64,000 bases of DNA, from NCBI GenBank assembly GCA_964652705.1, contig CAZZAV010000002.1, positions 47,306-111,305 on the forward strand, written 5' to 3'. Shown here one piece after another: positions 3,448-62,606 of the stretch. The first letter of the stretch is position 1, and every line of letters begins with the position of its first letter. Under the pieces are notes generated by a model. That model had not been told where the DNA came from. It was given only the letters and a program-made list of their open reading frames with translations, and did not search any database. The translations under genes and the position numbers were made by a program. The stretch comes from an uncultured Neisseria sp. Lineage in GTDB: Bacteria; Pseudomonadota; Gammaproteobacteria; Burkholderiales; UBA11063.

Positions 3448-4797
3448 ATGATATTAAAAAATAAATATAAAGTTATTATGCTTGTTATTTGGCTGTTTAT
3501 GGCTTGTTGTTTCTATGCTCTATACTCACCAGGGCTATTATCGCCAGATTCATGGGACCAGTTAAGTCAAGCATTAACTGGAAAATTTAATAATTGGCAA
3601 CCTGCTATTATGCAAATTCTATGGCATTGGTTGATTCCTGTGTTTGGTGTTTCTGCTTTATTGTTGTTTCATGTGGCTCTGTATTTTCTATCATTGATAC
3701 TGTTATCATTTTGGTTTATAAATAGGTTCAGGGTTTTTCCTGTAAGTATTATTTTGTTAGGTCTTTTCCCCACCTCTCTTTATGTGTTAATGTGGGTATG
3801 GAAAGATGTTGGTTTTGCAGTGGTATTGTTTATAATTGTAGTTCAGGTATTGGTTGTTGAAAATAAAAATAAATTTGTACACTGGGTTATATTGTTAATG
3901 TTATTTTGGTATGTGATAAATGTTAGAATTGGGAATTCTTTTGTAGTGTTACCAATTCTATACTATTTAATCAGTAAAAGTTATGTATTTTCAACTGGAG
4001 GTATTAAAAACAGAGTTTATTCATTTTTAACTTCAATAATTATTATCGTATGTAGTCTTGTATTTCAAATGTTAATAAATGCGTACTATGATGTAAAACC
4101 AAATAACGCATCACACCCATATTATATAGATATGGTTGCAACGCTTGTGCAAACTGGAAAACCATCTGCGATTAACGAATTTCCAGATTATTTAATGAAA
4201 GATCCTAAGAAAAAAGATGAGTTGGTAATTTTGTATAAAAAAGATCCCTATTGGGCAGATAATTTTGCTTGGGGTCCCGCTAGTAAGCTGGTTTATCCTA
4301 ATATTGGTTCGAAGGTGGTGGCTCCTTATTTAAGGATTATTTCAGCACACCCGCTAGCATACTTAGAGCACCGTATCTACTTTGGATTTTATTTATTAAT
4401 GACAAAAAGTATTGTTTGGTCTGCTATAAAAACCGAGGATTGTAGCCTAAATGAGTATCAAAAATCAGCGTTAAACAATAATATTAAATATATAAATACT
4501 GAGATACGGGGAAATATGGTAACGGGATTTTTCGATAAATATGTAAACATTTTATCTTTTTTATACATGCCATTAATTCATTTTATATTTGCAGTTATAA
4601 CATTATGCTATTTTACATATAAGAGGCAATTTACCTTAATTAGCGCTATATCAAGTTCGATCTTACTGTATTTTTGTATAATGTTTTTCTTTTGTCCAAT
4701 TATTGGGGAAACTCGTTATTTCTATTGGGTCTATTTATTAAATAATTTTAATATATGGTTATTATATATGCGTTTTAAATATAATATTGCTGTATAG
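3448..4797 (+). CDS. Polytopic membrane protein, probable GT-C glycosyltransferase (GtrX/GtrII-type)
   Basis: Many hydrophobic segments and a first loop SPDSWDQLSQALTG..WQP with acidic residues. It lies directly upstream of GtrA/GtrB homologues. Confidence 0.6.
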   Translation: MILKNKYKVIMLVIWLFMACCFYALYSPGLLSPDSWDQLSQALTGKFNNWQPAIMQILWHWLIPVFGVSALLLFHVALYFLSLILLSFWFINRFRVFPVSIILLGLFPTSLYVLMWVWKDVGFAVVLFIIVVQVLVVENKNKFVHWVILLMLFWYVINVRIGNSFVVLPILYYLISKSYVFSTGGIKNRVYSFLTSIIIIVCSLVFQMLINAYYDVKPNNASHPYYIDMVATLVQTGKPSAINEFPDYLMKDPKKKDELVILYKKDPYWADNFAWGPASKLVYPNIGSKVVAPYLRIISAHPLAYLEHRIYFGFYLLMTKSIVWSAIKTEDCSLNEYQKSALNNNIKYINTEIRGNMVTGFFDKYVNILSFLYMPLIHFIFAVITLCYFTYKRQFTLISAISSSILLYFCIMFFFCPIIGETRYFYWVYLLNNFNIWLLYMRFKYNIAV

Positions 4798-5190
4798 ATG
4801 ACTTATAGTATTTTTAGAGATATCCCAAACTTTATTAAATTTTTATTTATCGGTGGTTTTAATACAGCTGTTTGTATGCTATTATTTTGGCTACTAAATA
4901 GAACTGGCCTGAATTATTTGTTGTCTAGTGGATTGATGAATGTGTTTGGAGTAATCGAGGGTTATATCTTAAATGCTATTCTGCTCTACAAAAGTAAAAT
5001 CAGGTTTAAAGATTTACTGAAATATGGGAATGTGTATTTATTTGCTTTTATTGCAAATTTGTTGCTTATGTACGGATTTGTTACTGGCTTAAATTTGCCG
5101 AAATTGTTTTCTCAGATATTAACTACTGGTTTGTTAACAATAATAAATTATCAAATTATTAAATTATTTGTATTTAAGGTGAAAAACTAA
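4798..5190 (+). CDS. gtrA: GtrA-family undecaprenyl-P-sugar translocase
   Basis: 130 aa with 4 TM segments and FIKFLFIGGFNT at the N-terminus. It is adjacent to the GtrB homologue. Confidence 0.85.
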   Translation: MTYSIFRDIPNFIKFLFIGGFNTAVCMLLFWLLNRTGLNYLLSSGLMNVFGVIEGYILNAILLYKSKIRFKDLLKYGNVYLFAFIANLLLMYGFVTGLNLPKLFSQILTTGLLTIINYQIIKLFVFKVKN

Positions 5191-6143
5191 TGATGAATAA
5201 GAAAAAGATTGCAGTGTTAATTCCTGCTTATAATGAAGAACAAACTATTCGTGATGTTATTATTGATTTTTGGTTATATGGCAAAAAAGATCAATATGAC
5301 TATAAAATTTATGTTGTAGATAATAACTCAAATGACAAGACTAATCAAATAGCCAAGGAAACATTTTTGGAGTTAGGTGTTACAGGTGACGTTATGTTTG
5401 TTCGCCGTCAAGGAAAAGCTAATGCAGTAAAATATGCTTTCCAAAAAATCGATGCCGATGTTTATATTATGATTGATGCTGATTGTACTTATTGGGCAGA
5501 AGATATTGATAAATTTATTGATCCAATTTTAAATGAAGATATGGACATGGTCATAGGCGATAGAATGTCAACAGGGCATTATGCAGATGAAAACAAAAGA
5601 GCTTTTCATGGGTTTGGTAATTCATTAGTTAAAAACATGATTAATTACATATTTAAAGCTAATCTTAAAGATATTATGACTGGATATCGAGGGTTTAGTC
5701 GAAAATTAGTAAAAAACTATCCTATTTTGTGTGAGGGTTTTGAGTTAGAAACTGATATGAGTATATTTTGTTTAGAACATAAATTCAATATTGTAGAAGT
5801 GCCAATTAAGTTTACTGATCGACCAGATGGAAGTTTTTCTAAATTAAATACTTATACAGATGGTATGAAAGTAATCTTCACAATCCTGAATATGTTCAGA
5901 AACTATAAGCCTCTTCAGTTTTTCAGTCTTATTGGTTTCGTATTGCTAATACTCGGGCTTATAGCTGGAGCGTTCCCTATAGCCAACTATATAGAAACTA
6001 AATATGTGCAACAAATTCCTATGGCAATATTGTCTGTTGGATTGGTGATTACATCTATTTTAACTTTTTCAATAGGGTTAATCCTGAGTAGTGTTAGGCG
6101 ATATCAAAATATTAATTTTGAGGTGAGAATACTGAATGAATAA
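5190..6143 (+). CDS. gtrB: GtrB/DPM1-like polyprenol-phosphate glycosyltransferase (GT2)
   Basis: Motifs LIPAYNEE, VVDNNSND, MIDADCTY, DIMTGYRGF and GFELETDM. Two C-terminal TM helices. Confidence 0.85.
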   Translation: MMNKKKIAVLIPAYNEEQTIRDVIIDFWLYGKKDQYDYKIYVVDNNSNDKTNQIAKETFLELGVTGDVMFVRRQGKANAVKYAFQKIDADVYIMIDADCTYWAEDIDKFIDPILNEDMDMVIGDRMSTGHYADENKRAFHGFGNSLVKNMINYIFKANLKDIMTGYRGFSRKLVKNYPILCEGFELETDMSIFCLEHKFNIVEVPIKFTDRPDGSFSKLNTYTDGMKVIFTILNMFRNYKPLQFFSLIGFVLLILGLIAGAFPIANYIETKYVQQIPMAILSVGLVITSILTFSIGLILSSVRRYQNINFEVRILNE

Positions 6144-6362
6144 TTCTGAAATCGGTTTTGACCAAGGTTACAAAATTAAGTTGTTTATGGGGTAGTTTGC
6201 ATGTGTGAATTTTTTATTTAAAGTTAAGTATTTATAATATGTATTTTTTGGCTCTTTCGAGTTTCGTGTGGGTAAGGCTAAAAACTTAACCCACCCATTA
6301 CTAAATAAATTAACGCTTTAAAATGTATATTTAGTTATTTTAATTTTAATGATAATTTAATA

Positions 6363-23822: not shown

Positions 23823-24959
23823 ATGAAAATAGCCATAGTTCATGACTGGCTTTACACGTATGCTGGAGCTGAAAAGGTTTTAGAGCAAATTATTCAGTGT
23901 TTTCCAGAAGCAGACTTATTTAGTTTAATCGACTTTATTCCAAATGGTAAGCGTGATTTTATTGCAAATAAAGTTGTGAAAACTTCATTTATTCAGAACT
24001 TGCCATTGGCAAAAACTAAGCATCGCCATTATTTGCCATTGATGCCATTAGCAATTGAACAATTGGATGTAAGTGATTATGATGTGGTTATCAGCAGTTC
24101 ACATGCCGTTGCTAAAGGTGTTTTAACAGGTCCAAATCAATTACATATTTGTTACTGTCATTCACCAATTCGTTATGCTTGGGATATGCAACATCAGTAT
24201 TTACGTGAAGCAGGAATTACGCGAGGTTTTAAATCATGGCTTACACGCTATATTTTACATAAAATTCGGTTGTGGGATTATCGTACAGCTAATGGTGTAG
24301 ATTATTTTGTTGCCAATTCTAATTTTATTGCGCGAAGAATTTTTAAAGTTTATCGCCGTGACGCTAGTGTGATTTACCCAAATGTGGACATTGATAAATT
24401 CACGCTACAAAGTGACAAACAAGATTATTATTTAACCGCATCGCGCTTGGTTCCATATAAAAAAATTGTTTTAATTGCTGAAGCTTTTGCCAAAATGCCA
24501 GATAAACAATTGAAAATTGTTGGTACTGGTCCTGATCAAAAGAAAATTGCAGCTTTGGTGGCAACCGCACCTAATATAGAATATTTGGGATTTGTGGAAG
24601 ATAATGGTCTGGTTAATTTAATGCAAAATGCAAAAGCTTTTGTGTTTGCTGCAGAAGAGGATTTTGGAATTATTCCAGTTGAAGCTCAAGCCTGTGGTAC
24701 ACCAGTCATTGCTTATGGGCGCGGCGGAAGTCTTGAGACTGTAAATGGATTAAACAGTAGTTGCCCAACAGGAGTATTTTTTAATGAACAAAAAATTGAC
24801 AGTATCCTTGCCGCAATATCCCAATTTGAAAATCAGAATGTAATAACTTCTGATAATTGTCGTCAAAATGCGCTACGTTTTTCAGCACCGCGCTTTAGAT
24901 CTGATTTTCAGCAATTTGTGGAGCGTAAATATCAAGAATTTTGTGCGGGTATAAATTAA
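23823..24959 (+). CDS. GT4 glycosyltransferase (WbaZ-like mannosyltransferase)
   Basis: MKIAIVHDWL...GAEKVL, SRLVPYKK and EEDFGIIPVEAQACG. Confidence 0.8.
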   Translation: MKIAIVHDWLYTYAGAEKVLEQIIQCFPEADLFSLIDFIPNGKRDFIANKVVKTSFIQNLPLAKTKHRHYLPLMPLAIEQLDVSDYDVVISSSHAVAKGVLTGPNQLHICYCHSPIRYAWDMQHQYLREAGITRGFKSWLTRYILHKIRLWDYRTANGVDYFVANSNFIARRIFKVYRRDASVIYPNVDIDKFTLQSDKQDYYLTASRLVPYKKIVLIAEAFAKMPDKQLKIVGTGPDQKKIAALVATAPNIEYLGFVEDNGLVNLMQNAKAFVFAAEEDFGIIPVEAQACGTPVIAYGRGGSLETVNGLNSSCPTGVFFNEQKIDSILAAISQFENQNVITSDNCRQNALRFSAPRFRSDFQQFVERKYQEFCAGIN

Positions 24960-26374
24960 TGAAAAAGTTTTTATTACAAAAATGTGCTTTGGTAATGATC
25001 GATTTATTTTCATTGATATTTACTTATTGGCTTAGCATCCAGTTAGCGAATGTCGTTGAGCCAACTAGGGTGCATCGTTTTGATACTGATCACTTGGTAT
25101 TGGTTAAGGCGTTGAATGCGTTGGCAGTTATAGCCTTATTTTGGATTGCGGAGCTGTATGCAAAACGCCGTCCAACTTGGGAAGAGTTACGTATTATTTA
25201 TAAGCAGATTATGTATATTTTGGTGCTTGATTTTGTCGTAATTTCTTTGAGTAGGTCTGAGCATGTAACTTATTTATTTTTCTTTATGTTTTGGGCAATG
25301 CTGTTCATAATTCTACCATTGTTCAGGACATTTGCAATCCGAATTTTGTTACATTATAAATTATGGCAGCGTACTGTGTATATTGTTGGTTGTGGTGAGA
25401 CAGCACTGATGGCATATAATTTGCTTAAAAATCGCCGCTTAATGGGTTATCAGATTGCTGGTTTTGTTAATTTTGACGCGAGTAAAGAAATAACTAATTT
25501 AGAGCTTGATGGTAATTTTGTCCAAGTTTTAAATCTTGAGCAATTATTATCCCGTAGTCGGTATAGTGAAATTGTAGTTGCTTTGGATTCATTAGAGATG
25601 GTTAATAATTTGCAAAAAATTTTTAGTCTACAACGGCATTTTATTTTTGTGAGTTTGGTTCCTGATTTAGAGGGGCTTTCTCTATATGGTATGGAAATTA
25701 CGCATTTTTTTGGTAATGAACAGTTAATGTTGCGCTTGGAGAATAATCTAAATCGGCGCTTAAATAGATTGGTTAAAAAGATATTTGATTATCTAGTAGT
25801 TGTTGCATGTTTACCATTTATTGTGCCAATTATGATACTAATTAGTTTGTTTATTTTCTTAGAAGACAGGGGTAATCCATTTTTTATTCAGCCTCGGATT
25901 GGCAGAAATGGACGAGTGTTTGGTTGCTTTAAATTTCGTAGCATGCATAAAAACGCAGAAAAAATGTTGTTACAGTGGCGAGATGAAAATAATTTAATTT
26001 ATCAAGAGTATGTTGCAAACAATTTTAAATTAGCAAATGATCCGCGAGTAACGAGTATTGGACGGTTTTTACGTAAAACCAGCTTGGATGAGTTGGGGCA
26101 GTTGATCAATGTATTGCGCGGAGAAATGAGCTTAGTTGGTCCGCGTCCGTTGATTGAGCGTGAAATTGTTGATTATAATGATGGATTATTTTATTATAAA
26201 ATGGTGAGCCCTGGTATAACTGGAATGTGGCAAGTTAGTGGACGTAGTAAAACTTCTTTTAGTGATCGTTGCCGTTTGGATAGCTGGTACATCAAAAATT
26301 GGTCTCTTTGGTATGATGTTGTTATCTTGTTGAAAACGTTTGGAGTAGTTTTAAAGCGTGATGGAGCACATTAA
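24959..26374 (+). CDS. wbaP: Undecaprenyl-phosphate hexose-1-P transferase (WbaP-type initiating enzyme)
   Basis: N-terminal TM domain, then [28 protein letters not shown] and [13 protein letters not shown]. Confidence 0.9.
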
Positions 26375-26462
26375 TTGTGGCTTATTTATAAAAATCGTTC
26401 TAGTGATGATTAAATAAGTGTATAATTAAGGTTGAATTTTATTATTTTTTAGGAGTAGTGTC

Positions 26463-26987
26463 ATAAGCACTGAAAAGCAAACCCGTATCAATGGTGCGAT
26501 TAATGTACCCGAGGTTCGTTTAATTATTGATGAAACTAGTGAGCAGCTAGGAGTTGTTAGCATTCGTGAAGCATTGGCTAGGGCTGAAGAACTGCAATTA
26601 GATCTAGTGGAAATTTCTCCCAATGCCAATCCACCTGTATGCAAAATTATGGATTTTGGTAAATTTAAGTACCATGAGCAGAAAAAAGCTCATGCTGCTA
26701 AACAAAATCAAAAGCAGGTGCATGTCAAGGAAATTAAATTTCGCCCCGTGACTGATGATCATGATTATGAGATTAAAATGCGTAACGCAAGGCGTTTTTT
26801 GGAAGATGGCGATAAAGTTAAATTTATTGTACAATTTCGTGGACGTGAGATGGCTCATCAAGAGTTGGGTCTGCGTTACTTATTACGTGCTGAACAAGAT
26901 TTGATTGATTTAGTCGTAGTTGAATCTAAACCAAAAGTCGAAGGTCGTAATGCAATTATGATTGTGGCACCGAAAAAGAAAAAATAA
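26463..26987 (+). CDS. infC: Translation initiation factor IF-3, non-canonical ATA start
   Basis: AGGAG (26451-55) lies 7 nt before ATA at 26463. The continuous frame [21 protein letters not shown]...[11 protein letters not shown] joins the ORF-track protein with KEIKFRP and FRGRE. Confidence 0.95.
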
Positions 26988-26996
26988 GAGAGTAGT

Positions 26997-27869
26997 ATGA
27001 AAGTAAGCGGTTTTACTTTTCTGCGAAATGGAACAATTTTAGGCTATCCCTATGTGGAAAGCCTAAAATCATTATTGGCAGTTTGTGATGAAGTAGTAGT
27101 TGCACTTGGTGATAGTGATGATGACACTTTGGAGCAAGTTAAGGCTATTAATGATCCGCGTCTAAGAGTTATTCAAACTACGTGGAATGAAAATATGCAG
27201 GATCGTGGTTATACTTACGCGCAACAAAAGATGATTGCACAGTTCAATTGTACAGGTGATTGGGCATTTTATCTTGAGGGTGATGAAGTAATTCATGAGC
27301 AAGATTACGCAACGATTCGTGCTGCAATGGAAAAACATCTTGATGATAAGGATGTTGAAGCTCTAGTTTTTGATTACTATCATTTTTACGGTTCACCGAC
27401 TACCTATGCGTATTCTCCGCGTTGGTATCGTCGTGCGCCTCGAATTATTCGTAATAGTGTACGATCTTGGGCACCAGACGGTTTATTTTGGCTGATTATG
27501 AGTGAAAATAAGCGTGGACGTTATCCAAATGCAGCCTTGGTTGGTTGCCATTTGTATCATTATGGTCATGTGCGTTCAGTAGCCAAAATGAATGAAAAAC
27601 ATAAGCGAGTTGCTCATTATTGGGGGCAAAAATTGCCTGAGTTTGAGGGGTATGGCGATATTGACTCACAGAGTATTCTGAATTTTACGCAGACCCACCC
27701 TGCAATTTTAAAGCATTGGCTTGCGAATGATGCAGAGCAGAAGTTTGTTGCTAATATGGATTATCAGCTTTCAAAACGTGACAAAAAACATCGTTTAGTA
27801 AGTAAACTTGAGAAAATTCTTGGCGGTAAAGATTTTACTAAGAAACATTATAAGTTGATTAGAAAATAG
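26997..27869 (+). CDS. GT2-like glycosyltransferase
   Basis: MKVSGFTFLRNG..LGYP, DWAFYLEGDE and HYGHVR. Confidence 0.75.
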   Translation: MKVSGFTFLRNGTILGYPYVESLKSLLAVCDEVVVALGDSDDDTLEQVKAINDPRLRVIQTTWNENMQDRGYTYAQQKMIAQFNCTGDWAFYLEGDEVIHEQDYATIRAAMEKHLDDKDVEALVFDYYHFYGSPTTYAYSPRWYRRAPRIIRNSVRSWAPDGLFWLIMSENKRGRYPNAALVGCHLYHYGHVRSVAKMNEKHKRVAHYWGQKLPEFEGYGDIDSQSILNFTQTHPAILKHWLANDAEQKFVANMDYQLSKRDKKHRLVSKLEKILGGKDFTKKHYKLIRK

Positions 27870-53343: not shown

Positions 53344-54402
53344 ATGGCGATAATTCTTGCAGTAGATGCTATGGGTGGTGATCACGGTGTCAACATTACC
53401 GTACCATCTTGTTTGCGCTTTTTGAATGAAACTCCAGATGTTAATGTAATCTTGGTTGGTGACCGTGATGCAATTTATAAACAAATTGGTGATAAATTAT
53501 CTCAATATAGCGATAGAATAGAAGTTGTCCATGCAACTCAAGTGGTTGGTATGGATGAGGCACCACAAAGTGCCATGCGCACCAAACGCGATTCGTCTAT
53601 GCGAGTTGCAATTAATTTGGTTAAAGAAGGTAAGGCGAATGCGATTGTCTCCGCAGGTAATACTGGGGCGTTAATGGCTATTTCGCGTTATGTTCTACGG
53701 ACAATGGATGGCATTGATCGCCCAGCGATTGCCAAACTGTTACCTACCGTCAAAGGTGAGGTTTGTATGCTGGATCTAGGTGCCAATATTGAATGTTCTC
53801 CAGAGCATTTAGTTCAATTCGGTATCATGGGTGCCCAATTAATGCGTGGTGTGACTGGCAAAGCTTCTCCAAGTGTTGGTATTTTAAATATCGGTAGCGA
53901 AGATATTAAGGGTAATGAAACGGTTAAAAAGGCCGCAGAGTTATTGAAAAAGACTAACCTTAATTTCTACGGTAACGTTGAGGGTGATGATATTTTTAAA
54001 AGTGTGGTTGATGTAGTTGTTACTGATGGCTTTACTGGAAATGTTTCTTTGAAAACTACTGAAGGTGTTGCCAAAATGATTGCGTTCTTTTTAAAAGAAG
54101 AATTTACCAGTAGCTGGCTTACTAAACTAATTGCTTTGATTTCTTATCCAGTTTTAAAGCGTCTTAAGTTGCGTTTAAATCCAAGTAAATATAATGGTGC
54201 GGTTTTACTTGGTTTAAATGGATTAGTTATAAAAAGCCATGGTGGTGCTGATATTGACGGATTTTATTATGCTTTAATGCAAGCTCATCATGAGGTTGAT
54301 GCTGGAGTAATTGGTCTTTTACAAGATTACTTACAAAATAATAAGCATATTGATGATGAGAGTGATGAACTTATTGAGTTTAATGATTTGAAAAGCTTAT
54401 AA
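53344..54402 (+). CDS. plsX: Phosphate acyltransferase
   Basis: AVDAMGGDHG, SAGNTGALM, RPAIA, VTDGFTGN and KSHG. Confidence 0.97.
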   Translation: MAIILAVDAMGGDHGVNITVPSCLRFLNETPDVNVILVGDRDAIYKQIGDKLSQYSDRIEVVHATQVVGMDEAPQSAMRTKRDSSMRVAINLVKEGKANAIVSAGNTGALMAISRYVLRTMDGIDRPAIAKLLPTVKGEVCMLDLGANIECSPEHLVQFGIMGAQLMRGVTGKASPSVGILNIGSEDIKGNETVKKAAELLKKTNLNFYGNVEGDDIFKSVVDVVVTDGFTGNVSLKTTEGVAKMIAFFLKEEFTSSWLTKLIALISYPVLKRLKLRLNPSKYNGAVLLGLNGLVIKSHGGADIDGFYYALMQAHHEVDAGVIGLLQDYLQNNKHIDDESDELIEFNDLKSL

Positions 54403-54478
54403 TTTTTAAAATAAATAGTATATAAATTTAAAAAAGTTGTTTAGTGGTAAATTGTTAATCAAAATAAGGTATAATTTG

Positions 54479-54510
54479 GGCGGGGTTTCAACCCTGCCTT
54501 TTATTTTTTC
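54479..54510 (+). terminator. Terminator-like hairpin between plsX and fabH
   Basis: GGCGGGGT-ttca-ACCCTGCC followed by TTTTATTTTTT. Confidence 0.7.
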
Positions 54511-54529
54511 TTAGGGTAGTAAAGTTAGT

Positions 54530-55489
54530 ATGAAATATTCAAAAGTTATCGCTACCGGAAGTTATTTGCCAGAGAAAGTTTTAACAAATAAAGATTTGGA
54601 ACAATTAGTTGAAACCAATGATGAATGGATTTTCGAACGTACTGGGATTCGTCAGCGGAGAATTGTTGCTGAAGGTGAAAAAACTAGCGATATGGCTTAC
54701 CAGGCTACATTGAATGCTTTAGCAATGGCGCAAATAGAGGTTAGTGAAATTGATTTGATAATTTTTGCAACCAGTACTCCAGATGTGATTTTTCCATCAA
54801 CTGCGTGTATTTTACAAAATAAGTTGGGTATTAAAACCAAGGGTTCATTTGATCTTCAGGCAGCGTGCACGGGATTTATTTACGCATTAACTACTGCAGA
54901 TTGCTATATTCGTTCAGGCATGGCAAAAACAGTTCTAGTAGTTGGTGCTGATTCTATGTCAAGAATTGTGGACTATACTGATCGTGGAACATGTATCTTA
55001 TTTGGCGATGGCGCTGGTGCGGTTATTTTACAAGCGAGTGATGAACCAGGAGTCCTTGGTTGTGATATCCGTGCGGATGGAGAATATAATTCCATCTTAA
55101 CTTGTGATGGACATTTATATAATGGTGAGATTTTGGGTAATCCATATGTGCAGATGGATGGGCAAGCCGTATTTAAATTTGCGGTTCGTGCATTAACTGC
55201 GGTTGCTAAAGATTTGGCCAAAAAAATAGAAATAAATTTGAAGGGTGTGAAATGGGTAATTCCACATCAGGCGAATATTCGCATTTTGGAAGCTACGGCT
55301 AAACTGCTTGGTACTGATATGGATCATGTAGTAACAACAGTTGAGAATCATGGCAATACTTCAGCTGCGTCTATACCATTGGCATTTGATTGTGCTGTGC
55401 GCGATGGTAGAATTAAGCGAGGGGATCTTTTACTGCTCGAAGGGGTTGGTGCAGGGTTCTCGTGGGGTGCTGCGTTTATTAAATTTTAA
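54530..55489 (+). CDS. fabH: 3-oxoacyl-ACP synthase III
   Basis: AACTGF, FGDGAGA, PHQAN and GNTSAAS (C-H-N triad). Confidence 0.97.
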   Translation: MKYSKVIATGSYLPEKVLTNKDLEQLVETNDEWIFERTGIRQRRIVAEGEKTSDMAYQATLNALAMAQIEVSEIDLIIFATSTPDVIFPSTACILQNKLGIKTKGSFDLQAACTGFIYALTTADCYIRSGMAKTVLVVGADSMSRIVDYTDRGTCILFGDGAGAVILQASDEPGVLGCDIRADGEYNSILTCDGHLYNGEILGNPYVQMDGQAVFKFAVRALTAVAKDLAKKIEINLKGVKWVIPHQANIRILEATAKLLGTDMDHVVTTVENHGNTSAASIPLAFDCAVRDGRIKRGDLLLLEGVGAGFSWGAAFIKF

Positions 55490-55507
55490 TTTATGGGAAT
55501 ATCGATT

Positions 55508-56446
55508 ATGACTAAATTTGCATTTGTTTTTCCTGGGCAAGGCTCACAAGCTTTGAAGATGATGGATAATTTAGCAGAGTTTGTTGTGGTTAAACAGACT
55601 TTTGCGGAAGCTTCGGCTGAAATTGGAGTCGATTTATGGGCAATGTTACAAGAAGAGAATGCAGATAATATTAATCAAACTATAAATACTCAGCCTTTGT
55701 TGTTAACGGCAAGTTATGCTACATATTTAGTTTGGTTAGAGCAATCTGGAAATAAAGCCCCTGATTATGTTGCTGGACATAGTTTAGGTGAATATACCGC
55801 TCTAGTAGCTAGTGGTATTCTAAATTTTGTTGATGCAGTTAAATTGGTGCGAAAACGTGCTGAGTTCATGCAAGAAGCAGTTAAACCTGGTGAAGGTGGT
55901 ATGGCGGCAGTTTTGGGACTTGCCGATGAGCTAGTAGTTGAAGGTTGTGCTGAAGTTATGGCTAGTGGTTTTGGTGTGGTGCAAGGTGTTAACTTTAATT
56001 CAGTGGGACAAGTTGTTATTGCAGGTAACAAGGTCGCAGTGGATAAGGCTGCAGAAGTACTTAAAGCTAAAGGTGCACGTAAAGTTATGCCTTTGCCAGT
56101 ATCAGTACCATCACATTGTGATTTAATGAAACCTGCTGCTGAGAAATTAGCGTTAGAATTAAATAGTGTTACGTTTAATTCGGCTAAAATTCCATTGGTA
56201 CAAAATGTAAATGGTGAAGTTGCTAATGATGTGGCAGCAATTAAAGATGGATTGATTAAACAATTATATTCACCAGTTCTTTGGACTAAATCAGTTGCTA
56301 CTTTAGCCGATAATCAAGTTATGATAATTGTGGAGTGTGGTCCAGGTAAAGTTTTGTCTGGATTGAATAAACGTATTCATGAAAGTGCTGCATTGTTTAA
56401 TTTAAATTCTGCTGCTAGTATTGCAACCTTACAAGAGTCTTTGTAA
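55508..56446 (+). CDS. fabD: Malonyl-CoA:ACP transacylase
   Basis: FPGQGSQ, TQP, GHSLGEY and SVPSH. Confidence 0.97.
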   Translation: MTKFAFVFPGQGSQALKMMDNLAEFVVVKQTFAEASAEIGVDLWAMLQEENADNINQTINTQPLLLTASYATYLVWLEQSGNKAPDYVAGHSLGEYTALVASGILNFVDAVKLVRKRAEFMQEAVKPGEGGMAAVLGLADELVVEGCAEVMASGFGVVQGVNFNSVGQVVIAGNKVAVDKAAEVLKAKGARKVMPLPVSVPSHCDLMKPAAEKLALELNSVTFNSAKIPLVQNVNGEVANDVAAIKDGLIKQLYSPVLWTKSVATLADNQVMIIVECGPGKVLSGLNKRIHESAALFNLNSAASIATLQESL

Positions 56447-56453
56447 TTTTAAT

Positions 56454-56966
56454 ATGCTAAGTACAGAGCAACAAATTATTTTAAGGCATATGCTTATTGC
56501 TGTGTTGGTTGTATTAAGTTTAGTTGTATTTTCATGGTGTATACCGTTGAATTTGCCATTTAGTCGACTTTATGTTTTTCTGTTAGCATTAATTTTACCG
56601 ATATTTAGTTATATTATTGGAATTGGACGGATTGCTGGTTTACGCTTTTTTGATGAAAGTGTTAGTAATCCATTAATTGTGATGAATAATAAAAATTTGA
56701 ATGCATTTAAACAATATTTGAGTAATACTCATGAACAGATTTTTTTGGCTGTAGTTGTTTATGTTGTTTTGTCAGTAACTTTGCCATCACAGCAATTATA
56801 TTTACTTTTATTATTTAGCTTATGCTTTGCAATTGGTCGAATTTTGTTTGCACAAGGTTATACACGTGGTGCAAGTGGTCGCAGCTTAGGATTTGCACTT
56901 ACATTTTATTCTAATGTGATTGGGTTTGTTCTTGGTGTTGCGTGGTTAATTAAAGCTATTGTGTAA
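56454..56966 (+). CDS. MAPEG-family membrane protein
   Basis: Four TM segments with YLSNTHEQ, GRILFAQGY and RSLGFALTFY. Starts 7 nt after the fabD stop. Confidence 0.75.
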   Translation: MLSTEQQIILRHMLIAVLVVLSLVVFSWCIPLNLPFSRLYVFLLALILPIFSYIIGIGRIAGLRFFDESVSNPLIVMNNKNLNAFKQYLSNTHEQIFLAVVVYVVLSVTLPSQQLYLLLLFSLCFAIGRILFAQGYTRGASGRSLGFALTFYSNVIGFVLGVAWLIKAIV

Positions 56967-57043
56967 ATGTTAATTTGATTTAAATTTAGAATTATAAGAT
57001 AGTCATAGATAAAATTAATTGGATAATTTATTAGGAGTTATTT

Positions 57044-57778
57044 ATGTCAGAAATTAAAAAAATTGCCTTGGTAACTGGTGCAAGCCGTGGTATTGGTCGT
57101 TCAATTGCAATTACCTTAGCTCAGAGTGGTGTAATTGTAATTGGTACGGCAACTAGTGAAAGTGGTGCTGAAGCGATTACATCGTATTTAAAAGAATTTG
57201 GTGGGCGTGGGGTTGCATTAAACGTAAATGATAAAGATAATATTGACGCGGTAGTTAAAGATATTGCGAGCAATGAAGGTGATTTGACTATCTTGGTAAA
57301 TAATGCGGGAATTACTAAAGATGGCTTATTGATGCGTATGAAAGAAGAAGATTGGGATGCTGTTTTGGATACTAATTTGAAATCAGTGTTTTTATTGGTT
57401 AAAGCAGCAATTCGTGGCATGACCAAAGCGAAATTTGGTCGAATCATTAATGTGGCATCAGTAGTTGGATTTATGGGTAATCCTGGGCAGATAAATTATT
57501 CTGCAGCTAAAGGTGGAATGATTGCAATGACTAAATCATTAGCCAAAGAATTTGGTAGCCGTAATGTGACGGCGAATTGCGTTGCACCTGGTTTTATTCA
57601 AACTGATATGACGGATAAATTGCCTGAAGATGTACGCGATTCATATATTAAAAATATTCCACTTGGACGCTTTGGTCAGGTTGAAGATATTGCTAATGCA
57701 GTGAAGTATTTAGCTAGCGATGAAGCTGGTTATGTGACTGGCTCTACTATTCACGTAAATGGTGGATTATACGTCTAA
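57044..57778 (+). CDS. fabG: 3-oxoacyl-ACP reductase
   Basis: VTGASRGIG, NNAGIT.D.L.MRM, NYSAAK and VAPGFIQTDM. Confidence 0.97.
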   Translation: MSEIKKIALVTGASRGIGRSIAITLAQSGVIVIGTATSESGAEAITSYLKEFGGRGVALNVNDKDNIDAVVKDIASNEGDLTILVNNAGITKDGLLMRMKEEDWDAVLDTNLKSVFLLVKAAIRGMTKAKFGRIINVASVVGFMGNPGQINYSAAKGGMIAMTKSLAKEFGSRNVTANCVAPGFIQTDMTDKLPEDVRDSYIKNIPLGRFGQVEDIANAVKYLASDEAGYVTGSTIHVNGGLYV

Positions 57779-57987: not shown

Positions 57988-60276
57988 ATGACAGTATTTT
58001 TCATTTTACCGCTTATCCCACTAATTGGTGGGATTTTTACGTTAATTAATTATTTCCGCCAAAAAGACACCAAGTTACTTAGTAATGTTTTTAGTGGACT
58101 TTTGTTTGTATGCGCTTTATTGGCGGCTTTCACCTATAAAACACCACTAGTATTCAATATTAATTTTTTTGAGGGTGCAGATAATATTATTCAAGATATT
58201 AAGCTGCAACTTGAAGGTCTATCATTATTCATGATAGTTTTGGTAAGTTCAATAAGTTATTTTGTGCATCAATTTGCTAGTCGATATTTGAGCTCTGATG
58301 CAAGCCAAGGGCGTTTTATGGCGCAGTTATCATTATTAACTGCCGCAGTGTTATTTCTAGTTATGGGGGGAAATCTCTTAAGCTGCTTTTTAGGGTGGGA
58401 GTTTGTTGGATTAACATTATATTTATTATTAAATCATTATCACTATGATCAAAGAGCGAATCGTGCTGCCAAAAAAGAATTTATTATTAACCGGCTGGGT
58501 GATGCTGCCTTCATGGTTGCAATAATATTATGTTTATTCTATTTTAACTCAAGTGAGTTTAGTGTATTAGCATCAAAACCGGTAATTATCTGGAGTGGGT
58601 TTGGCAGAACATTGTCATTACAAACATTAATAGTGTTTTTAATTTTTATTGCCATAATGACAAAGTCAGCACAATTCCCATTTCATATCTGGTTACCTGA
58701 CACCATGCAAGCTCCAACACCAGTATCAGCAATGATGCATGCTGGAGTAATAAACATCGGTGGATTCTTATTAGCACGGCTTAGTCCATATATTCCACTT
58801 GGTTCGGTATTAAGCGGTTTCATCTATACTATTGGCATGATTTCAATGGTTGCTGCAGCATTTTTTGGACTTAGTCAACACGATATTAAACGTCAACTAG
58901 CGTACTCTACCATGGGACAAATGGGCTATATGATAGTACAAACTGGATTAGGCTTTTTCTCTGCTGCGGTCTTTCATTTAGCTGCGCATGGTTTTTTTAA
59001 AGCTTATTTGTTTTTGTCTGCAGGTAGCACTATCGGTCATAAATATGAAAGCCATGGAGGCTCACTAAGACAAGGTTTAACTGCGATAAAAATCTCCGCG
59101 CTAACCTTCATTATTTTTGCCGAATATAACATCCTAGTTTATCATCATTTTCCAACATCCGTTGCTATTGTTGGAATGTTTGTTTCAATGTCACTTGGAC
59201 AATATATGTCCGAATTAACAATGTTAAGGATATCCAATAATCAAAAAGTTGTTATTTATCTTATCAGCTTAGTATTTTTAACGATCTATGTTTATTTGAT
59301 TAATGGATTGGATGATTATTTAAATTTATCTGTGGTAAATCAAACATCAAATGTCTCTTGGTATAAACTTGTGATTGCAATCTTGGTTATGCTATTACAA
59401 GTTTTTGTTTGGATAAAACCTTTAATCAAAAATGAAATATCCGTTATTGTGACGATTCGCGCATATTATTTCAGTGTGAATAAATTATTTATAGAGGAGT
59501 TTTTTCGTAAATTTATACTACAACCTTACGAGAAACTCTCTATTAAATTAAATGAACTTTGTTTATACCGAGCGTTTAAATTACCATTAGGTGCAGTAAT
59601 ATTTGGTTTTATTTCTGTTATCGTTATGTTACATGGATTGTTTGATTTAACAGGTGATGAGCAGAATAATTTATTAGTACTGCTAATTTTGACATTACTT
59701 GTGATTTCATTAATAACAGCATATAGGGCTAACACTTTAGGTCAAATAAATTATTATCTATTTATAGCTCAAATTAATATGGCAAGTATTGGCTTGTGTA
59801 GTATGACTAGGGGGTTTTTACGAACTCTTTCACTACTACAACTATTGAATGCTACTTTAATTTTTATTGGCATATATTATATCCAAAATTCATACCAGCA
59901 GACTGACCATGAACCGCCAAAAAGTGTTGGTAATAAACTTATTTGGTCAAGTTTTTATTATTGTATTTTAATGTTTTTGTTAGTTGGAGTACCATTTACC
60001 ACAAGCTTCACTTCAGAGTTATACATTCTTAGTGATGTTTTACAAGGTAGTCCATGCTTTGTTGTGATCGTAGCATTATCATTTGTATTTTTGGCTATGG
60101 CAATATTAAATGCATTACAAGAATATGTATTTAATGCTGAATCGATATTGCTGAAGCAAAATACTCAAATTAGCAGAATAGGCCATGTTTTTCTATTAGC
60201 ATGTATTTTTTTTAATATCATAAACGGTTTGGCGCCTAGTTGGTTGGTTCGTCACATTTATCTTTTTGGGGCGTAA
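57988..60276 (+). CDS. dabB: NuoL/ND5-like membrane subunit of a DAB inorganic-carbon pump, with C-terminal NuoM/N-like extension
   Basis: GWEFVG, NRLGD, KSAQFPFHIWLPD.MQAPTPVSAMMHAG, AYSTMGQMG and HGFFKAYLFL. Stand-alone (no other nuo genes) and 2 nt upstream of dabA. Confidence 0.85.
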   Translation: MTVFFILPLIPLIGGIFTLINYFRQKDTKLLSNVFSGLLFVCALLAAFTYKTPLVFNINFFEGADNIIQDIKLQLEGLSLFMIVLVSSISYFVHQFASRYLSSDASQGRFMAQLSLLTAAVLFLVMGGNLLSCFLGWEFVGLTLYLLLNHYHYDQRANRAAKKEFIINRLGDAAFMVAIILCLFYFNSSEFSVLASKPVIIWSGFGRTLSLQTLIVFLIFIAIMTKSAQFPFHIWLPDTMQAPTPVSAMMHAGVINIGGFLLARLSPYIPLGSVLSGFIYTIGMISMVAAAFFGLSQHDIKRQLAYSTMGQMGYMIVQTGLGFFSAAVFHLAAHGFFKAYLFLSAGSTIGHKYESHGGSLRQGLTAIKISALTFIIFAEYNILVYHHFPTSVAIVGMFVSMSLGQYMSELTMLRISNNQKVVIYLISLVFLTIYVYLINGLDDYLNLSVVNQTSNVSWYKLVIAILVMLLQVFVWIKPLIKNEISVIVTIRAYYFSVNKLFIEEFFRKFILQPYEKLSIKLNELCLYRAFKLPLGAVIFGFISVIVMLHGLFDLTGDEQNNLLVLLILTLLVISLITAYRANTLGQINYYLFIAQINMASIGLCSMTRGFLRTLSLLQLLNATLIFIGIYYIQNSYQQTDHEPPKSVGNKLIWSSFYYCILMFLLVGVPFTTSFTSELYILSDVLQGSPCFVVIVALSFVFLAMAILNALQEYVFNAESILLKQNTQISRIGHVFLLACIFFNIINGLAPSWLVRHIYLFGA

Positions 60277-60278
60277 TA

Positions 60279-62606
60279 ATGATTGAAGCTTTGATCAACA
60301 AAATTACAAAGTGCATACCAAGCTACCCACCATTACAGTCATTTAATGCGAGTAATCCTCTAATTGGACTCCATGAGTTACCGTTTGATGAGGCTATCGC
60401 ATCTGTTGCTAAATATGCACCGATATCAGGCACTCTCTCACTACATAAATATCATGCCTTTTGGCAATCTGGTAAAATAAATATCAATGACTTGAGCTTT
60501 GCGATTAAAGACTTTTTGGTTCAACAAAATATTCAAACGATAACTGAAGATACAATTTTAGAACTATTATTAGATAAATCCTTGCAAAGTAAATTTGCTG
60601 ATATTGATAGCAAAGTTAGACGTAATTTTTCGGCACAAATTTCTGGATGGTATGTTCAAAGCAATCAACGTGTATTTAGCTTTGTGGCACGCTTTTTTGA
60701 TATAGGTCAAGCGAAATGGCAAATGCCAGTAAAAAGCAATCAACTCTATTTAGCATGGCTTGAATACGCTAAGGTGAATTACTCTCGATATGCAATAATG
60801 CACCAGATGACAGACAATGTTTATACATCAATCAGAAACATGTTAAATTTAGCAGATATTCATGAAGATAATATTGAAGACTATTTACTTAAAGTGTTAT
60901 TTCAAATAATTGGCTGGGCTAGCTTTGTTCATTGGTTAGAGTTAGTAGAGATTAATCCATATGTTGATAAGCGGGGTAAAGTAGCAGATATTATTGCAAT
61001 TTGGCTTGCTGAGACATCAATTTTACATGGGAAACTTATGGAGTTTCCTGATAGTGTTTTTACCAATGTCGACAGCGAATTTGAAGAGGTTCTTCGTGAA
61101 TATTTCAAAAAATACAATGCCGATGAAGAATGTTTAGTAAAATTAAACCGTCATAATTGGAACTTAATTTGGCAATTGGCACTAGAGCATAATTACCGAG
61201 ATAATCTAGTTCGCCAGATCAAATTAAACAAGCATCGAACGATAGCAAAACCAACTGCACAACTATTATTTTGTGTAGATGTACGTTCTGAAGGATTACG
61301 TAGATATCTTGAAAGTTATAATAATTATCAAACTTTTGGCACTGCTGGTTTTTTTGGAGTTGGATTTGACTTTCATCACCAACATAATGTAACAAGGCAA
61401 AGCCCAGATTGGAGTACATCTCATCATTACTTACATGTCCCGACAAAACGGTTAACTCCATTACATAATGTTTTCAAAAATTTAGTTAATGGCTTATTAC
61501 GAACCAAAAAAAGTTTTTTGGCTCCATTGGTATTATTTGACGTTGTAGGTCTATGGTTTAGCTTAAGAATTATGGCAAATACTCTAATGCCATGGAAGAA
61601 GAAATTAATTGGTAAGCATCACCAATTAGAATATAATAGTTTTGATATTTTTCAAGACAGTAATTATTCGATTCAAGAATTAAGTCAACAAATAGCTAAA
61701 CTTCTCAGAAGCATTGGGCTATGTAACAATTTTTCTGAATTAATAGTGGTATGTGGACATTTAAGTGAGTCAGTAAATAATCCTTTTATTTCGAGTCTTC
61801 ATTGCGGTGCATGTGGTGGTAATAGTGGAGCACCAAATGCAATTGCATTCTGTCAAGCAATCAATGATCCACGAGTGAGAAGTCACCTAAGCCATCATGA
61901 AAATATTCATATTCCTGTTTACGTACAATTTGTTGCGGCTACTCATAATACAACTACTGATCAAGTGGATTATTACTATAATCAACATGTACTAAGTATT
62001 GATAATATCGAAAGATTAGATAGGTTAAAAAGGGATCTTGAGTTAGCAGGGAGAGACTTGTGCAATGAAAGGCAGTTACACATGGATGCCGAGCAAAGCG
62101 TTGATGTGCGTAAAGGTGACTGGGCTGAACTACAGCCTGAATTGGGGCAGGTTAATAATGCAGCATTAGTCATCGGACCGCGCGGAATCACCAGAAATAT
62201 TAATTTACAACGAAGCGTATTTCTTCAATCCTATGATTCTAAATTTGATCTTGATGGATCAATCTTGAATGATATTTTTAATTCAACAGTAAAAGTCGTC
62301 AACATGATAAATAGTCAATATTATTTTTCAACTACTGATCAAAATCTTTTTGGTAGTGGCAATAAAGTATTACATAACATTGTTTCACAATTGGGTGTTA
62401 TGGAAGGCAATAGTTCAGACTTAAAAATTGGCTTCTCACAACAAAGTTTATTTTACAAAGGTGAATCAGTGCATTTACCGCTAAGGTTATGCATCATTGT
62501 ATGTGCCCCTGAAAGTTTAGTAACTGAAACCTTGGCTAAAAATAGGCTATTAACTAAATTAATTGAGGGAAAATGGCTTAACTTTTATCAAATAGATCGC
62601 CAGTAA
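60279..62606 (+). CDS. dabA: DabA (DUF2309/MpsB) beta-carbonic-anhydrase-like subunit
   Basis: PLQSFNASNPL..L...PF, FCVDVRSE, TFGTAGFFG, CGH...NNP...LHCGACGG and GN-K-LHN. The C/D/H/C Zn ligand set is present. Confidence 0.9.
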   Translation: MIEALINKITKCIPSYPPLQSFNASNPLIGLHELPFDEAIASVAKYAPISGTLSLHKYHAFWQSGKININDLSFAIKDFLVQQNIQTITEDTILELLLDKSLQSKFADIDSKVRRNFSAQISGWYVQSNQRVFSFVARFFDIGQAKWQMPVKSNQLYLAWLEYAKVNYSRYAIMHQMTDNVYTSIRNMLNLADIHEDNIEDYLLKVLFQIIGWASFVHWLELVEINPYVDKRGKVADIIAIWLAETSILHGKLMEFPDSVFTNVDSEFEEVLREYFKKYNADEECLVKLNRHNWNLIWQLALEHNYRDNLVRQIKLNKHRTIAKPTAQLLFCVDVRSEGLRRYLESYNNYQTFGTAGFFGVGFDFHHQHNVTRQSPDWSTSHHYLHVPTKRLTPLHNVFKNLVNGLLRTKKSFLAPLVLFDVVGLWFSLRIMANTLMPWKKKLIGKHHQLEYNSFDIFQDSNYSIQELSQQIAKLLRSIGLCNNFSELIVVCGHLSESVNNPFISSLHCGACGGNSGAPNAIAFCQAINDPRVRSHLSHHENIHIPVYVQFVAATHNTTTDQVDYYYNQHVLSIDNIERLDRLKRDLELAGRDLCNERQLHMDAEQSVDVRKGDWAELQPELGQVNNAALVIGPRGITRNINLQRSVFLQSYDSKFDLDGSILNDIFNSTVKVVNMINSQYYFSTTDQNLFGSGNKVLHNIVSQLGVMEGNSSDLKIGFSQQSLFYKGESVHLPLRLCIIVCAPESLVTETLAKNRLLTKLIEGKWLNFYQIDRQ

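What the first reader, a model, noticed from the sequence alone, without database searches (positions are those of the whole stretch)
59500..60276. DabB carries an extra ~230-aa degenerate NuoM/N-like half-module
Seen: after the ND5 core and a lateral-helix-like stretch (KLFIEEFFRKFILQPY), about 6-7 more TM segments follow. They echo the C-half of antiporter-like subunits: ITAYRANTLGQINYYLFIAQINMASIGL, LLQLLNATL, VGVPFTTSFTSELYIL and GLAPSWL. Most charged residues are lost but the SE glutamate is kept. Known, from recall: characterised DabB/MpsA are about 500-550 aa versus 762 aa here. Inference: a fusion variant with an extra ion half-channel or scaffold that could alter coupling ion or stoichiometry.
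Basis: partly seen in the sequence, partly recalled or inferred. Interest (0 to 1): 0.62.

Follow-up and report, generated by a model that had tools for sequence, protein, structure and literature searches.

The report
DabB with built-in NuoM-like half-module
The membrane subunit of this bacterium's CO2-trapping DAB pump carries, fused to its end, half of a complex I NuoM-type proton channel; this is a fused, less eroded counterpart of DabC, the separate third subunit recently described in other DAB pumps, and it is shared by a whole subfamily rather than being a one-off.

Summary
dabB (57988-60276, 762 aa) is one intact ORF directly followed by dabA. After a complete NuoL-like core, a short lateral helix and a TM16-like helix, residues about 560-762 form six more helices. 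These are homologous to TM9/10-TM14 of NuoM/ND4 (profile-profile E 6e-18; E. coli NuoM residues 294-488, E 1e-8). Glu677 aligns with NuoM Glu407 in the broken TM12.

The extension is not unique to this window. It defines a subfamily of about 58 clusters at 50% identity, all 670-778 aa and always followed by dabA. The subfamily occurs in Coxiellaceae, Legionellales, Neisseriaceae-like and other Pseudomonadota. It is present in 13 of the 104 genomes with DabA in an even sample of 401 genomes of the class. This genome holds two such cassettes.

The closest known thing is DabC, the half-size NuoM-like third subunit of DAB1 (PNAS 2026). DabC is encoded in the same slot, between dabB and dabA, and is naturally fused to DabB in Aquificota, Melainabacteria and SAR116.

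The extension matches the same NuoM segment as DabC but fails the DabC profile. It keeps polar axis residues (Q595, N621, E677) that DabC lost, and it belongs to a separate DabA clade.

Most likely role: a built-in DabC-like cap and DabA docking surface. An active ion relay is not excluded.

The parts
57988..60276 (+). dabB, 762 aa plus stop: NuoL-like core fused to a NuoM-like half-module
   Evidence: One ORF. PF00361 and PF00662. Homologues of 760-778 aa, each followed by dabA.
57988..59427 (+). DabB core, residues 1-480: complete 14-TM antiporter-like module. It holds E138, R169, D172, K226, H251, H330, H334 and K338.
   Evidence: TIGR01972 positions 6-468 of 486 and NF006029 positions 58-497 of 520. 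NuoL/ND5 are the top Foldseek and PDB hits. K226, H251, H330, H334 and K338 are invariant in 57-58 family members.
59359..59640 (+). TM15 (res 458-475), short lateral-helix-like amphipathic helices (res 486-525, with KLFIEEFFRKFILQPY) and a TM16-like linker helix (res 534-551)
   Evidence: Secondary structure of model m4f8a95239bae. NF006029 covers up to residue 514. DabB2 also has a short lateral helix HL.
59665..60273 (+). NuoM/ND4-type C-terminal half-module, residues 560-762 (equivalents of TM9-TM14)
   Evidence: TIGR01972 positions 304-474 at E 2.4e-7. hhalign against NuoM/N C-halves at E 5.7e-18. E. coli NuoM 294-488. pLDDT mostly 80-97.
59944..60048 (+). Broken TM12-like helix (res 653-687) with the motif GVPFTTSFTSE. 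Glu677 is the codon at 60016-60018.
   Evidence: Helix break at 667-671 in the model. P669 is in 58/58 members and E677 in 50/58. The motif aligns with E. coli NuoM G397-E407.
60279..62606 (+). dabA, 775 aa from the ATG two bases after the dabB stop: beta-carbonic-anhydrase-like subunit
   Evidence: PF10070 E 1e-175 over positions 1-747. Junction sequence. DabA2 9rd0_A gives 270 bits.

Best explanation
This DabB is a '1.5-module' protein. A complete NuoL-like proton-conducting core (TM1-15) is followed by a short lateral helix and a TM16-like helix. These tether a second, partial antiporter module equivalent to TM9-TM14 of NuoM/ND4.

By analogy with complex I and with the solved DAB1 complex, the half-module most likely packs against the TM4-8 face of the core, the face that NuoM covers on NuoL. 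There it would act as the built-in counterpart of DabC. It would cap and stabilise that face, and its conserved cytoplasmic-side residues (N649, Q711, F715, H733) would help dock the cytoplasmic carbonic-anhydrase subunit DabA.

Shown here: the homology, the architecture, the family-wide conservation and the adjacency to dabA. Inferred: the packing position, the DabA docking and the functional equivalence to DabC.
For: - Homology to the NuoM C-half.
- Bona fide DabC proteins match the same part of the NuoM model. Positions 272-467 give E 1.4e-6 and positions 221-466 give E 2e-13. hhalign of DabC against NuoM/N gives E 6.9e-15 on the same template columns as the extension.
- In 57 DAB1 loci the order is dabB-dabC-dabA, so the extension occupies DabC's slot.
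- DabB-DabC are one ORF in Thermocrinis, Hydrogenobacter, Sulfurihydrogenibium, Melainabacteria and SAR116.
- Direct profile-profile comparison of extension and DabC is collinear over 186 columns, with P 3-5e-4. The motifs R580, P669/F674 and Q711 fall on the conserved R, P..F and Q of DabC.
- The topology parity of the modelled helices fits the native orientation of TM9-14.
- The whole chain is modelled as one body with pTM 0.90.
- The published DAB1 structure finds DabC aligned with the NuoM helices next to NuoL, required for function, and touching DabA at the membrane surface.
- There is no stand-alone DabC in this genome.
Against: - The DabC HMM does not detect the extension, and the extension HMM does not detect gammaproteobacterial DabC. 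Both are closer to NuoM than to each other, so a shared 'DabC' ancestor is not shown.
- The DabA partners form a clade separate from DAB1, and the window's DabA lacks the strict DAB1 motif (NNPFISSLHCGACGG).
- Unlike DabC, the extension keeps polar residues at the three central-axis positions, which hints at more than a scaffold.
- No model coordinates were available and no complex model was made, so the packing face and the DabA contact are not verified.
Confidence: 0.68

Rival explanations
1. The half-module is an active part of the ion path, not only a scaffold. Its retained polar chain (Q595, Q618/N621, E677) would abut the core's TM5/TM7 junction, as NuoM Glu407 abuts NuoL Glu144. It would then form an extra access route or an electrostatic gate that changes gating, proton stoichiometry or ion preference of the pump.
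For: - E677 is kept in 50/58 members and N621 in 49/58. Position 595 is Q or E in 36/58 and position 618 is Q, H or Y in 49/58.
- These residues align with NuoM E407, H348, H322 and Q344. DabC has hydrophobic residues at those positions (PMC13684180).
- In the window's own clade the core also has the canonical TM5 Glu (E138) with R169, D172 and K226, which are both NuoL ion pairs. DabB2 has Ile at the Glu position, DAB1 DabB has Q/H, and 49 of 58 long DabB proteins have Q.
Against: - His to Gln or Asn changes remove titratable groups, and only one acidic residue remains.
- Most of the subfamily has Gln at the core's TM5 position, so a Glu-Glu relay cannot be general.
- Re-introducing Glu at this position lowered DAB2 activity.
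- No structural or functional data exist for this subfamily.
Confidence: 0.2
2. The extension arose by internal duplication of DabB's own C-terminal half, or is a decaying remnant without function.
For: The extension evolves faster than the core: 64% against 81% identity to P0003, and 20-30% against 32-39% to distant members.
Against: - hhalign of the extension against its own core gives P 0.12, against E 5.7e-18 to NuoM/N C-halves.
- About 20 positions are at least 80% conserved across 58 clusters, including an invariant N649, P669 and F715.
- The extension is kept in both paralogous cassettes of this genome.
Confidence: 0.04
3. The long ORF is an assembly or gene-calling artefact that joins two genes.
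For: None found.
Against: - The same uninterrupted ORF of 737-778 aa is found in independent assemblies and genomes.
- The junction region is conserved.
Confidence: 0.01

Closest known systems
DabC, third subunit of DAB1 complexes (H. neapolitanus Hneap_0908; T. albus DAB1 cryo-EM, PNAS 2026, PMC13684180)
   Same: - It is a half-size, NuoM-derived membrane module and matches the same segment of NuoM.
- It is encoded between the DabB core and dabA.
- It occurs naturally fused to DabB in several phyla.
- It shows weak but collinear profile similarity to the extension, P 3-5e-4.
   Different: - The extension is not found by the DabC HMM.
- The extension keeps E677, N621 and Q595 where DabC is hydrophobic.
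- Its partner DabA is short (700-860 aa), lacks the strict NNPYESALDCGACGG motif and forms its own clade.
- The extension is always fused, never a separate gene, in the loci seen here.
DabB2 of the two-subunit DAB2 complex (H. neapolitanus, PDB 9RD0, 551 aa) and MpsA of S. aureus
   Same: A NuoL-like core next to DabA/MpsB, with conserved Lys/His proton-path residues and a short lateral helix.
   Different: - DabB2 ends after the lateral helix and has no half-module. The extension profile does not hit 9rd0_B.
- DabB2 has Ile at the TM5 Glu position, whereas the window has Glu138.
NuoM/ND4 (and NuoN, MrpD) antiporter-like subunits of complex I and Mrp
   Same: The extension is homologous to their TM9/10-TM14, including the broken TM12 with GxPGTxxFxxE, and E677 corresponds to E. 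coli NuoM E407.
   Different: The extension lacks TM1-8 and so has no TM5 Glu or TM7/TM8 Lys of its own. The His residues of TM10 and TM11 are replaced by Gln and Asn. It is covalently joined to a NuoL-like module.
NuoL with its lateral helix HL and TM16
   Same: The core plus TM15, the amphipathic helix and a TM16-like helix reproduce the NuoL layout. Both NuoL ion pairs are present as R169/E138 and K226/D172.
   Different: The lateral helix is short, about 27-40 residues, and leads into a fused half-module rather than clamping separate subunits.

Membership tests
DabB (PF00361 subunit of DAB/DAC/MpsAB) | NuoL-like PF00361 membrane protein | tested here: met
   PF00361 E 2.7e-55. NF006029 gives 235.7 bits, below its cut-off of 380.
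DabB (PF00361 subunit of DAB/DAC/MpsAB) | Encoded next to and co-oriented with a PF10070 DabA gene | tested here: met
   dabA starts 2 bases after the dabB stop. The same arrangement is found in all relatives examined.
DabB (PF00361 subunit of DAB/DAC/MpsAB) | Conserved proton-path Lys/His residues of TM7, TM8 and TM11 | tested here: met
   K226, H251, H330, H334 and K338 are invariant in 57-58 members and in the DAB1 DabB set, where position 226 is K or R.
DabB (PF00361 subunit of DAB/DAC/MpsAB) | PMF-dependent inorganic-carbon accumulation together with DabA | not testable with these tools
   Needs complementation and uptake assays.
DabC (DAB1 third subunit) | Half-size membrane module homologous to the NuoM helices next to NuoL | tested here: met
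   The extension and DabC map to the same NuoM/N columns.
DabC (DAB1 third subunit) | Position between the DabB core and dabA | tested here: met
   The order is dabB-dabC-dabA in 57 loci. Here the module lies between the core and dabA, but it is fused.
DabC (DAB1 third subunit) | Recognised by a DabC sequence profile | tested here: not met
   hmmsearch gives no significant hit. hhalign gives only P 3-5e-4 and probability 32-38%.
DabC (DAB1 third subunit) | Channel residues replaced by hydrophobic ones | tested here: not met
   The extension has E677, N621 and Q595 at the NuoM E407, H348 and H322 positions. DabC is hydrophobic there.
DabC (DAB1 third subunit) | Partner DabA of DAB1 type (NNPYESALDCGACGG motif, about 1000 aa or more) | tested here: not met
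   The window DabA is 775 aa with NNPFISSLHCGACGG and lies in a separate clade.
NuoM/ND4 antiporter-like subunit | Complete 14-TM module with both five-helix repeats | tested here: not met
   Only model positions about 293/304-474 of 486 are matched.
NuoM/ND4 antiporter-like subunit | Broken TM12 carrying Glu or Lys | tested here: met
   Helix break at 667-671. E677 aligns with E407.
MrpA-type C-terminal extension | MrpB/NuoJ-like C-terminal domain after the NuoL-like part | tested here: not met
   MrpA models match only residues up to about 357. MrpA chains superpose poorly, with TMq 0.46-0.50 and rmsd 18-22 Å.

The most novel reading that the evidence does not exclude
The fused half-module is a working partner of the core. 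E677 and its polar neighbours would recreate the NuoM-to-NuoL junction of complex I next to the core's E138/R169 and K226/D172 pairs. This DAB subfamily would then have a gated or longer proton route, with a different H+ per CO2 ratio, gating or ion preference from DAB1 and DAB2. It would also show the un-eroded state from which DabC decayed.
Probability: 0.2. Interest if true: 0.7.

Novelty: new variant of a known kind. Interest (0 to 1): 0.45.

Why it matters
DAB pumps supply bicarbonate to autotrophs and to many heterotrophs, and how they couple proton flow to one-way CO2 hydration is still being worked out. The role of DabC is the least understood part.

This subfamily shows that a NuoM-type half-module beside DabB is not peculiar to DAB1. 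It also occurs, permanently fused and with the key TM12 glutamate intact, in a separate DAB clade common in Legionellales, Coxiellaceae and Neisseriaceae-like bacteria.

That gives a natural comparison set for testing whether the half-module is only a scaffold. The set runs from no module in DAB2, through an eroded module in DAB1, to a fused, less eroded module here. It also gives annotators a domain boundary for proteins now called 'NADH-quinone oxidoreductase subunit L' or 'hypothetical'.

Tried and rejected
- AlphaFold2 with the shallow 8-sequence alignment gave pLDDT 48 and was discarded.
- Foldseek of the whole good model returns only NuoL/ND5 and says nothing about the extension. The packing face and distances such as E677 to E138 were therefore not measured.
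- The extension as a single sequence finds nothing in the PDB. The DAB1 structure (38RH/38RI, deposited September 2026) is not in the libraries used.
- The search for related loci with the diverse extension alignment failed for lack of a conserved stretch. A hand-made degenerate DNA pattern was used instead.
- My first NuoM/N C-half alignment was contaminated by one truncated long DabB. It was rebuilt without that sequence.
- A tree of half-modules to decide between common and independent origin of the extension and DabC was not attempted. About 200 fast-evolving columns would be dominated by long-branch effects.
- The H. neapolitanus MAG held only DAB1, so no DAB2 locus could be added to the tree.

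Full report
**What is there.** The window carries plsX, fabH, fabD, a 181-aa membrane ORF and fabG, then dabB at 57988-60276 (762 aa). dabA follows from the ATG at 60279, two bases after the dabB stop. dabA is a full PF10070 protein (E 1e-175) with the beta-carbonic-anhydrase CxDxR and HCGAC motifs visible in its translation.

**The core.**
- Residues 1-480 are a complete antiporter-like module: PF00361 E 2.7e-55, NuoM model TIGR01972 positions 6-468 of 486, and the roughly 520-position DabB-type NCBIfam model NF006029 positions 58-497.
- Solved NuoL/ND5 chains are the best sequence and fold matches, and DabB2 of H. neapolitanus (9rd0_B, 551 aa) is also hit.
- The proton-path residues K226, H251, H330, H334 and K338 are invariant in the family.

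**The extension is real and is a NuoM-type C-terminal half-module.**
- Residues 505-762 alone hit TIGR01972 at positions 293-474 (E 3.9e-7), and residues 541-762 hit positions 304-474 (E 2.4e-7).
- An HMM of 58 family members hits ordinary ~500-aa NuoM/N proteins at their residues ~270-485, with E 1e-16 to 1e-8.
- hhalign against an alignment of such C-halves gives E 5.7e-18 over about 200 columns.
- A 22-sequence profile finds P. denitrificans NuoM 286-482 (E 3.4e-13) and E. coli NuoM 294-488 (E 1e-8).
- In that alignment GVPFTTSFTSE lies on G397-E407, so Glu677 corresponds to NuoM Glu407. N621 corresponds to His348 and Q595 to His322.
- The extension is not similar to the core's own C-half (hhalign P 0.12), which argues against a recent internal duplication.

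**Predicted structure.** With 8 sequences the model was useless (pLDDT 48). With 57 sequences it reached pLDDT 88.7 and pTM 0.90.
- After TM15 (458-475) come amphipathic helices at 486-525 (lateral-helix-like) and a TM16-like helix at 534-551.
- Six more helices follow: 560-579, 584-603, 610-638, 653-666/672-687 (broken at GVPFT, like TM12), 689-713 and 730-761.
- Counting from a NuoL-like topology, each of these helices has the membrane orientation of TM9-TM14. This is inference from helix parity.
- I could not obtain coordinates, so the packing of the half-module against the core is inferred, not measured.

**How common it is.**
- A profile of the extension finds 72 clusters (50% identity) among 1.84 billion representatives. 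About 58 of them are 667-773-aa proteins carrying the extension at the C-terminus, and the rest are mostly fragments.
- Searching with the core alone, 118 of the best 120 relatives are 670-778 aa. The long form is therefore a coherent subfamily, named in databases only as 'proton-conducting transporter membrane subunit', 'NADH-quinone oxidoreductase subunit L' or 'hypothetical'.
- Named genomes with a long DabB directly followed by dabA include Coxiellaceae, Legionellales, Neisseriaceae/Neisseriales MAGs, Cysteiniphilum halobium and various Gammaproteobacteria.
- In an even sample of 401 genomes of the class, 104 have DabA. Thirteen have this extension, always adjacent to dabA, in open frames that are 737-768 aa in all but one, where the frame is cut short at 376 aa.
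- The window's own genome (2.46 Mb, 34.8% GC) has a second cassette. Its 758-aa DabB is 42% identical over the full length.
- DabA proteins partnered with long DabB form one clade (SH-aLRT 100) that is distinct from DAB1 DabA.
- The window's DabA is about equally distant from DabA1 (298 bits) and DabA2 (270 bits).

**Relation to DabC.**
[quoted passage not shown] It aligns with the NuoM helices next to NuoL, has hydrophobic residues in place of channel residues, is required for function and is judged structural.
- I fetched DAB1 loci through the DabA1 motif. In 57 loci the order is dabB (about 560 aa), dabC (about 250 aa, or 358-441 aa in Nitrospirota and Nitrospinota), dabA. The window's extension therefore sits in DabC's slot.
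- DabC proteins match the same part of the NuoM model as the extension (positions 272-467 and 221-466). hhalign of DabC against NuoM/N gives E 6.9e-15 on the same template columns.
- DabB and DabC are a single ORF in Ca. Pampinifervens (755 aa), Thermocrinis sp., Hydrogenobacter and Sulfurihydrogenibium (759-760 aa), Melainabacteria/Obscuribacterales (838-852 aa) and SAR116 (853-855 aa). The paper itself once writes 'the T. albus DabBC protein'.
- A DabB with a fused NuoM-like half-module is thus a recurrent architecture.

**How the extension differs from DabC.**
- The DabC HMM does not find the extension, and the extension HMM does not find gammaproteobacterial DabC.
- Profile-profile comparison is collinear over 186 columns but weak (P 3-5e-4). 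Each is much closer to NuoM than to the other, so common descent from one 'DabC' ancestor is possible but not shown.
- The extension keeps polar residues at the three central-axis positions where DabC is hydrophobic.
- About 20 positions are at least 80% conserved, among them R580, N621, N649, G667, P669, F674, E677, Q711, F715, H733, N743, G747 and P750.
- By the modelled topology, N649, Q711, F715 and H733 lie at the cytoplasmic ends of TM12-14, the side where DabA sits. This placement is inference.

**A detail of the window's own clade.** The DAB2 paper notes that NuoL has two ion pairs, K229/D178 and R175/E144. DabB2 replaces E144 by Ile, and restoring Glu halves activity. By motif and alignment offset, the window has all four residues: K226, D172, R169 and E138. 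DAB1 DabB has Q or H at the Glu position, and 49 of 58 long DabB proteins have Q. Glu is limited to the 9 sequences of the window's clade. Together with E677 this recreates, on paper, the NuoM-Glu407 / NuoL-Glu144 junction of complex I.

**Most likely mechanism.** The half-module is a built-in DabC equivalent. I infer that it covers the TM4-8 face of DabB that is otherwise exposed to lipid, holds the TM5/TM7 region in shape and contributes to the cytoplasmic docking surface for DabA. Proton flow through the core would then be transmitted to the buried carbonic-anhydrase site (confidence about 0.68). The rival with real weight (about 0.2) is that the retained polar chain makes it an active relay or gate. 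Internal duplication, decay and artefact are disfavoured, as set out under the rival explanations.

**Verdict.** This is a distinct, undescribed variant of a known kind of subunit, ordinary within its subfamily and not rare. It is of moderate interest to people working on DAB mechanism, mainly as a natural contrast to DabC.

Noticed in passing
G000 contig C26:27267-29561 (-) and 24895-27225 (-); locus L314:6265-8541 and 3863-6247: The same genome holds a second long-dabB/dabA cassette. Its DabB is 758 aa and 42% identical to the window's, also with the half-module. The window-type copy is the rarer one in the genus.
   Followed up: partly
window 53344-57778 and 57988-62606: dabB-dabA follow plsX-fabH-fabD-(181-aa membrane ORF 56421-56966)-fabG, where acpP-fabF are usually expected.
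   Followed up: no
L321:1998-4280; L009:2985-5252; L323-L325; L332, L335, L337, L342, L347, L349; L340, L343, L346: These are natural single-ORF DabB-DabC fusions. They are 755-760 aa in Aquificota, 838-852 aa in Melainabacteria/Obscuribacterales/Cyanobacteria MAGs and 853-855 aa in SAR116 alphaproteobacteria. Where the downstream DNA is held, the fused gene is followed by dabA. I did not find this stated in the DAB papers read.
   Followed up: partly
L024, L029, L034, L041, L058, L134 and other Nitrospirota/Nitrospinota loci: DabC is 358-441 aa here instead of about 250 aa. The DabC domain lies in the C-terminal 250 residues and an extra N-terminal part of 110-165 aa precedes it.
   Followed up: partly
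window 58399-58401 (Glu138 of DabB): The TM5 position equivalent to NuoL Glu144 is Glu only in the window's clade (9 of 58 long DabB proteins). It is Gln in the other 49, Q or H in most DAB1 DabB and Ile in DabB2.
   Followed up: partly
G000 contig C1:118828-119280 (-): The only beta-carbonic-anhydrase domain (PF00484) in the genome lies in a 747-aa open frame, possibly a transporter-CA fusion. No alpha-CA was found.
   Followed up: no
L305, L306, L309, L312 (same-genus genomes): Some genomes of the same genus carry a different DAB type. Its DabA is about 830 aa and dabA lies upstream of dabB. No half-module hit was found in the part of dabB that was held.
   Followed up: no
L245, L247, L279, L287-L289 (Sedimenticola-like and other Gammaproteobacteria): DabA proteins of about 1090-1120 aa lie directly after ~488-aa antiporter-like proteins whose TM12 keeps the canonical GxPGTxxFxxE motif. 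This may be another DAB membrane-subunit type.
   Followed up: no
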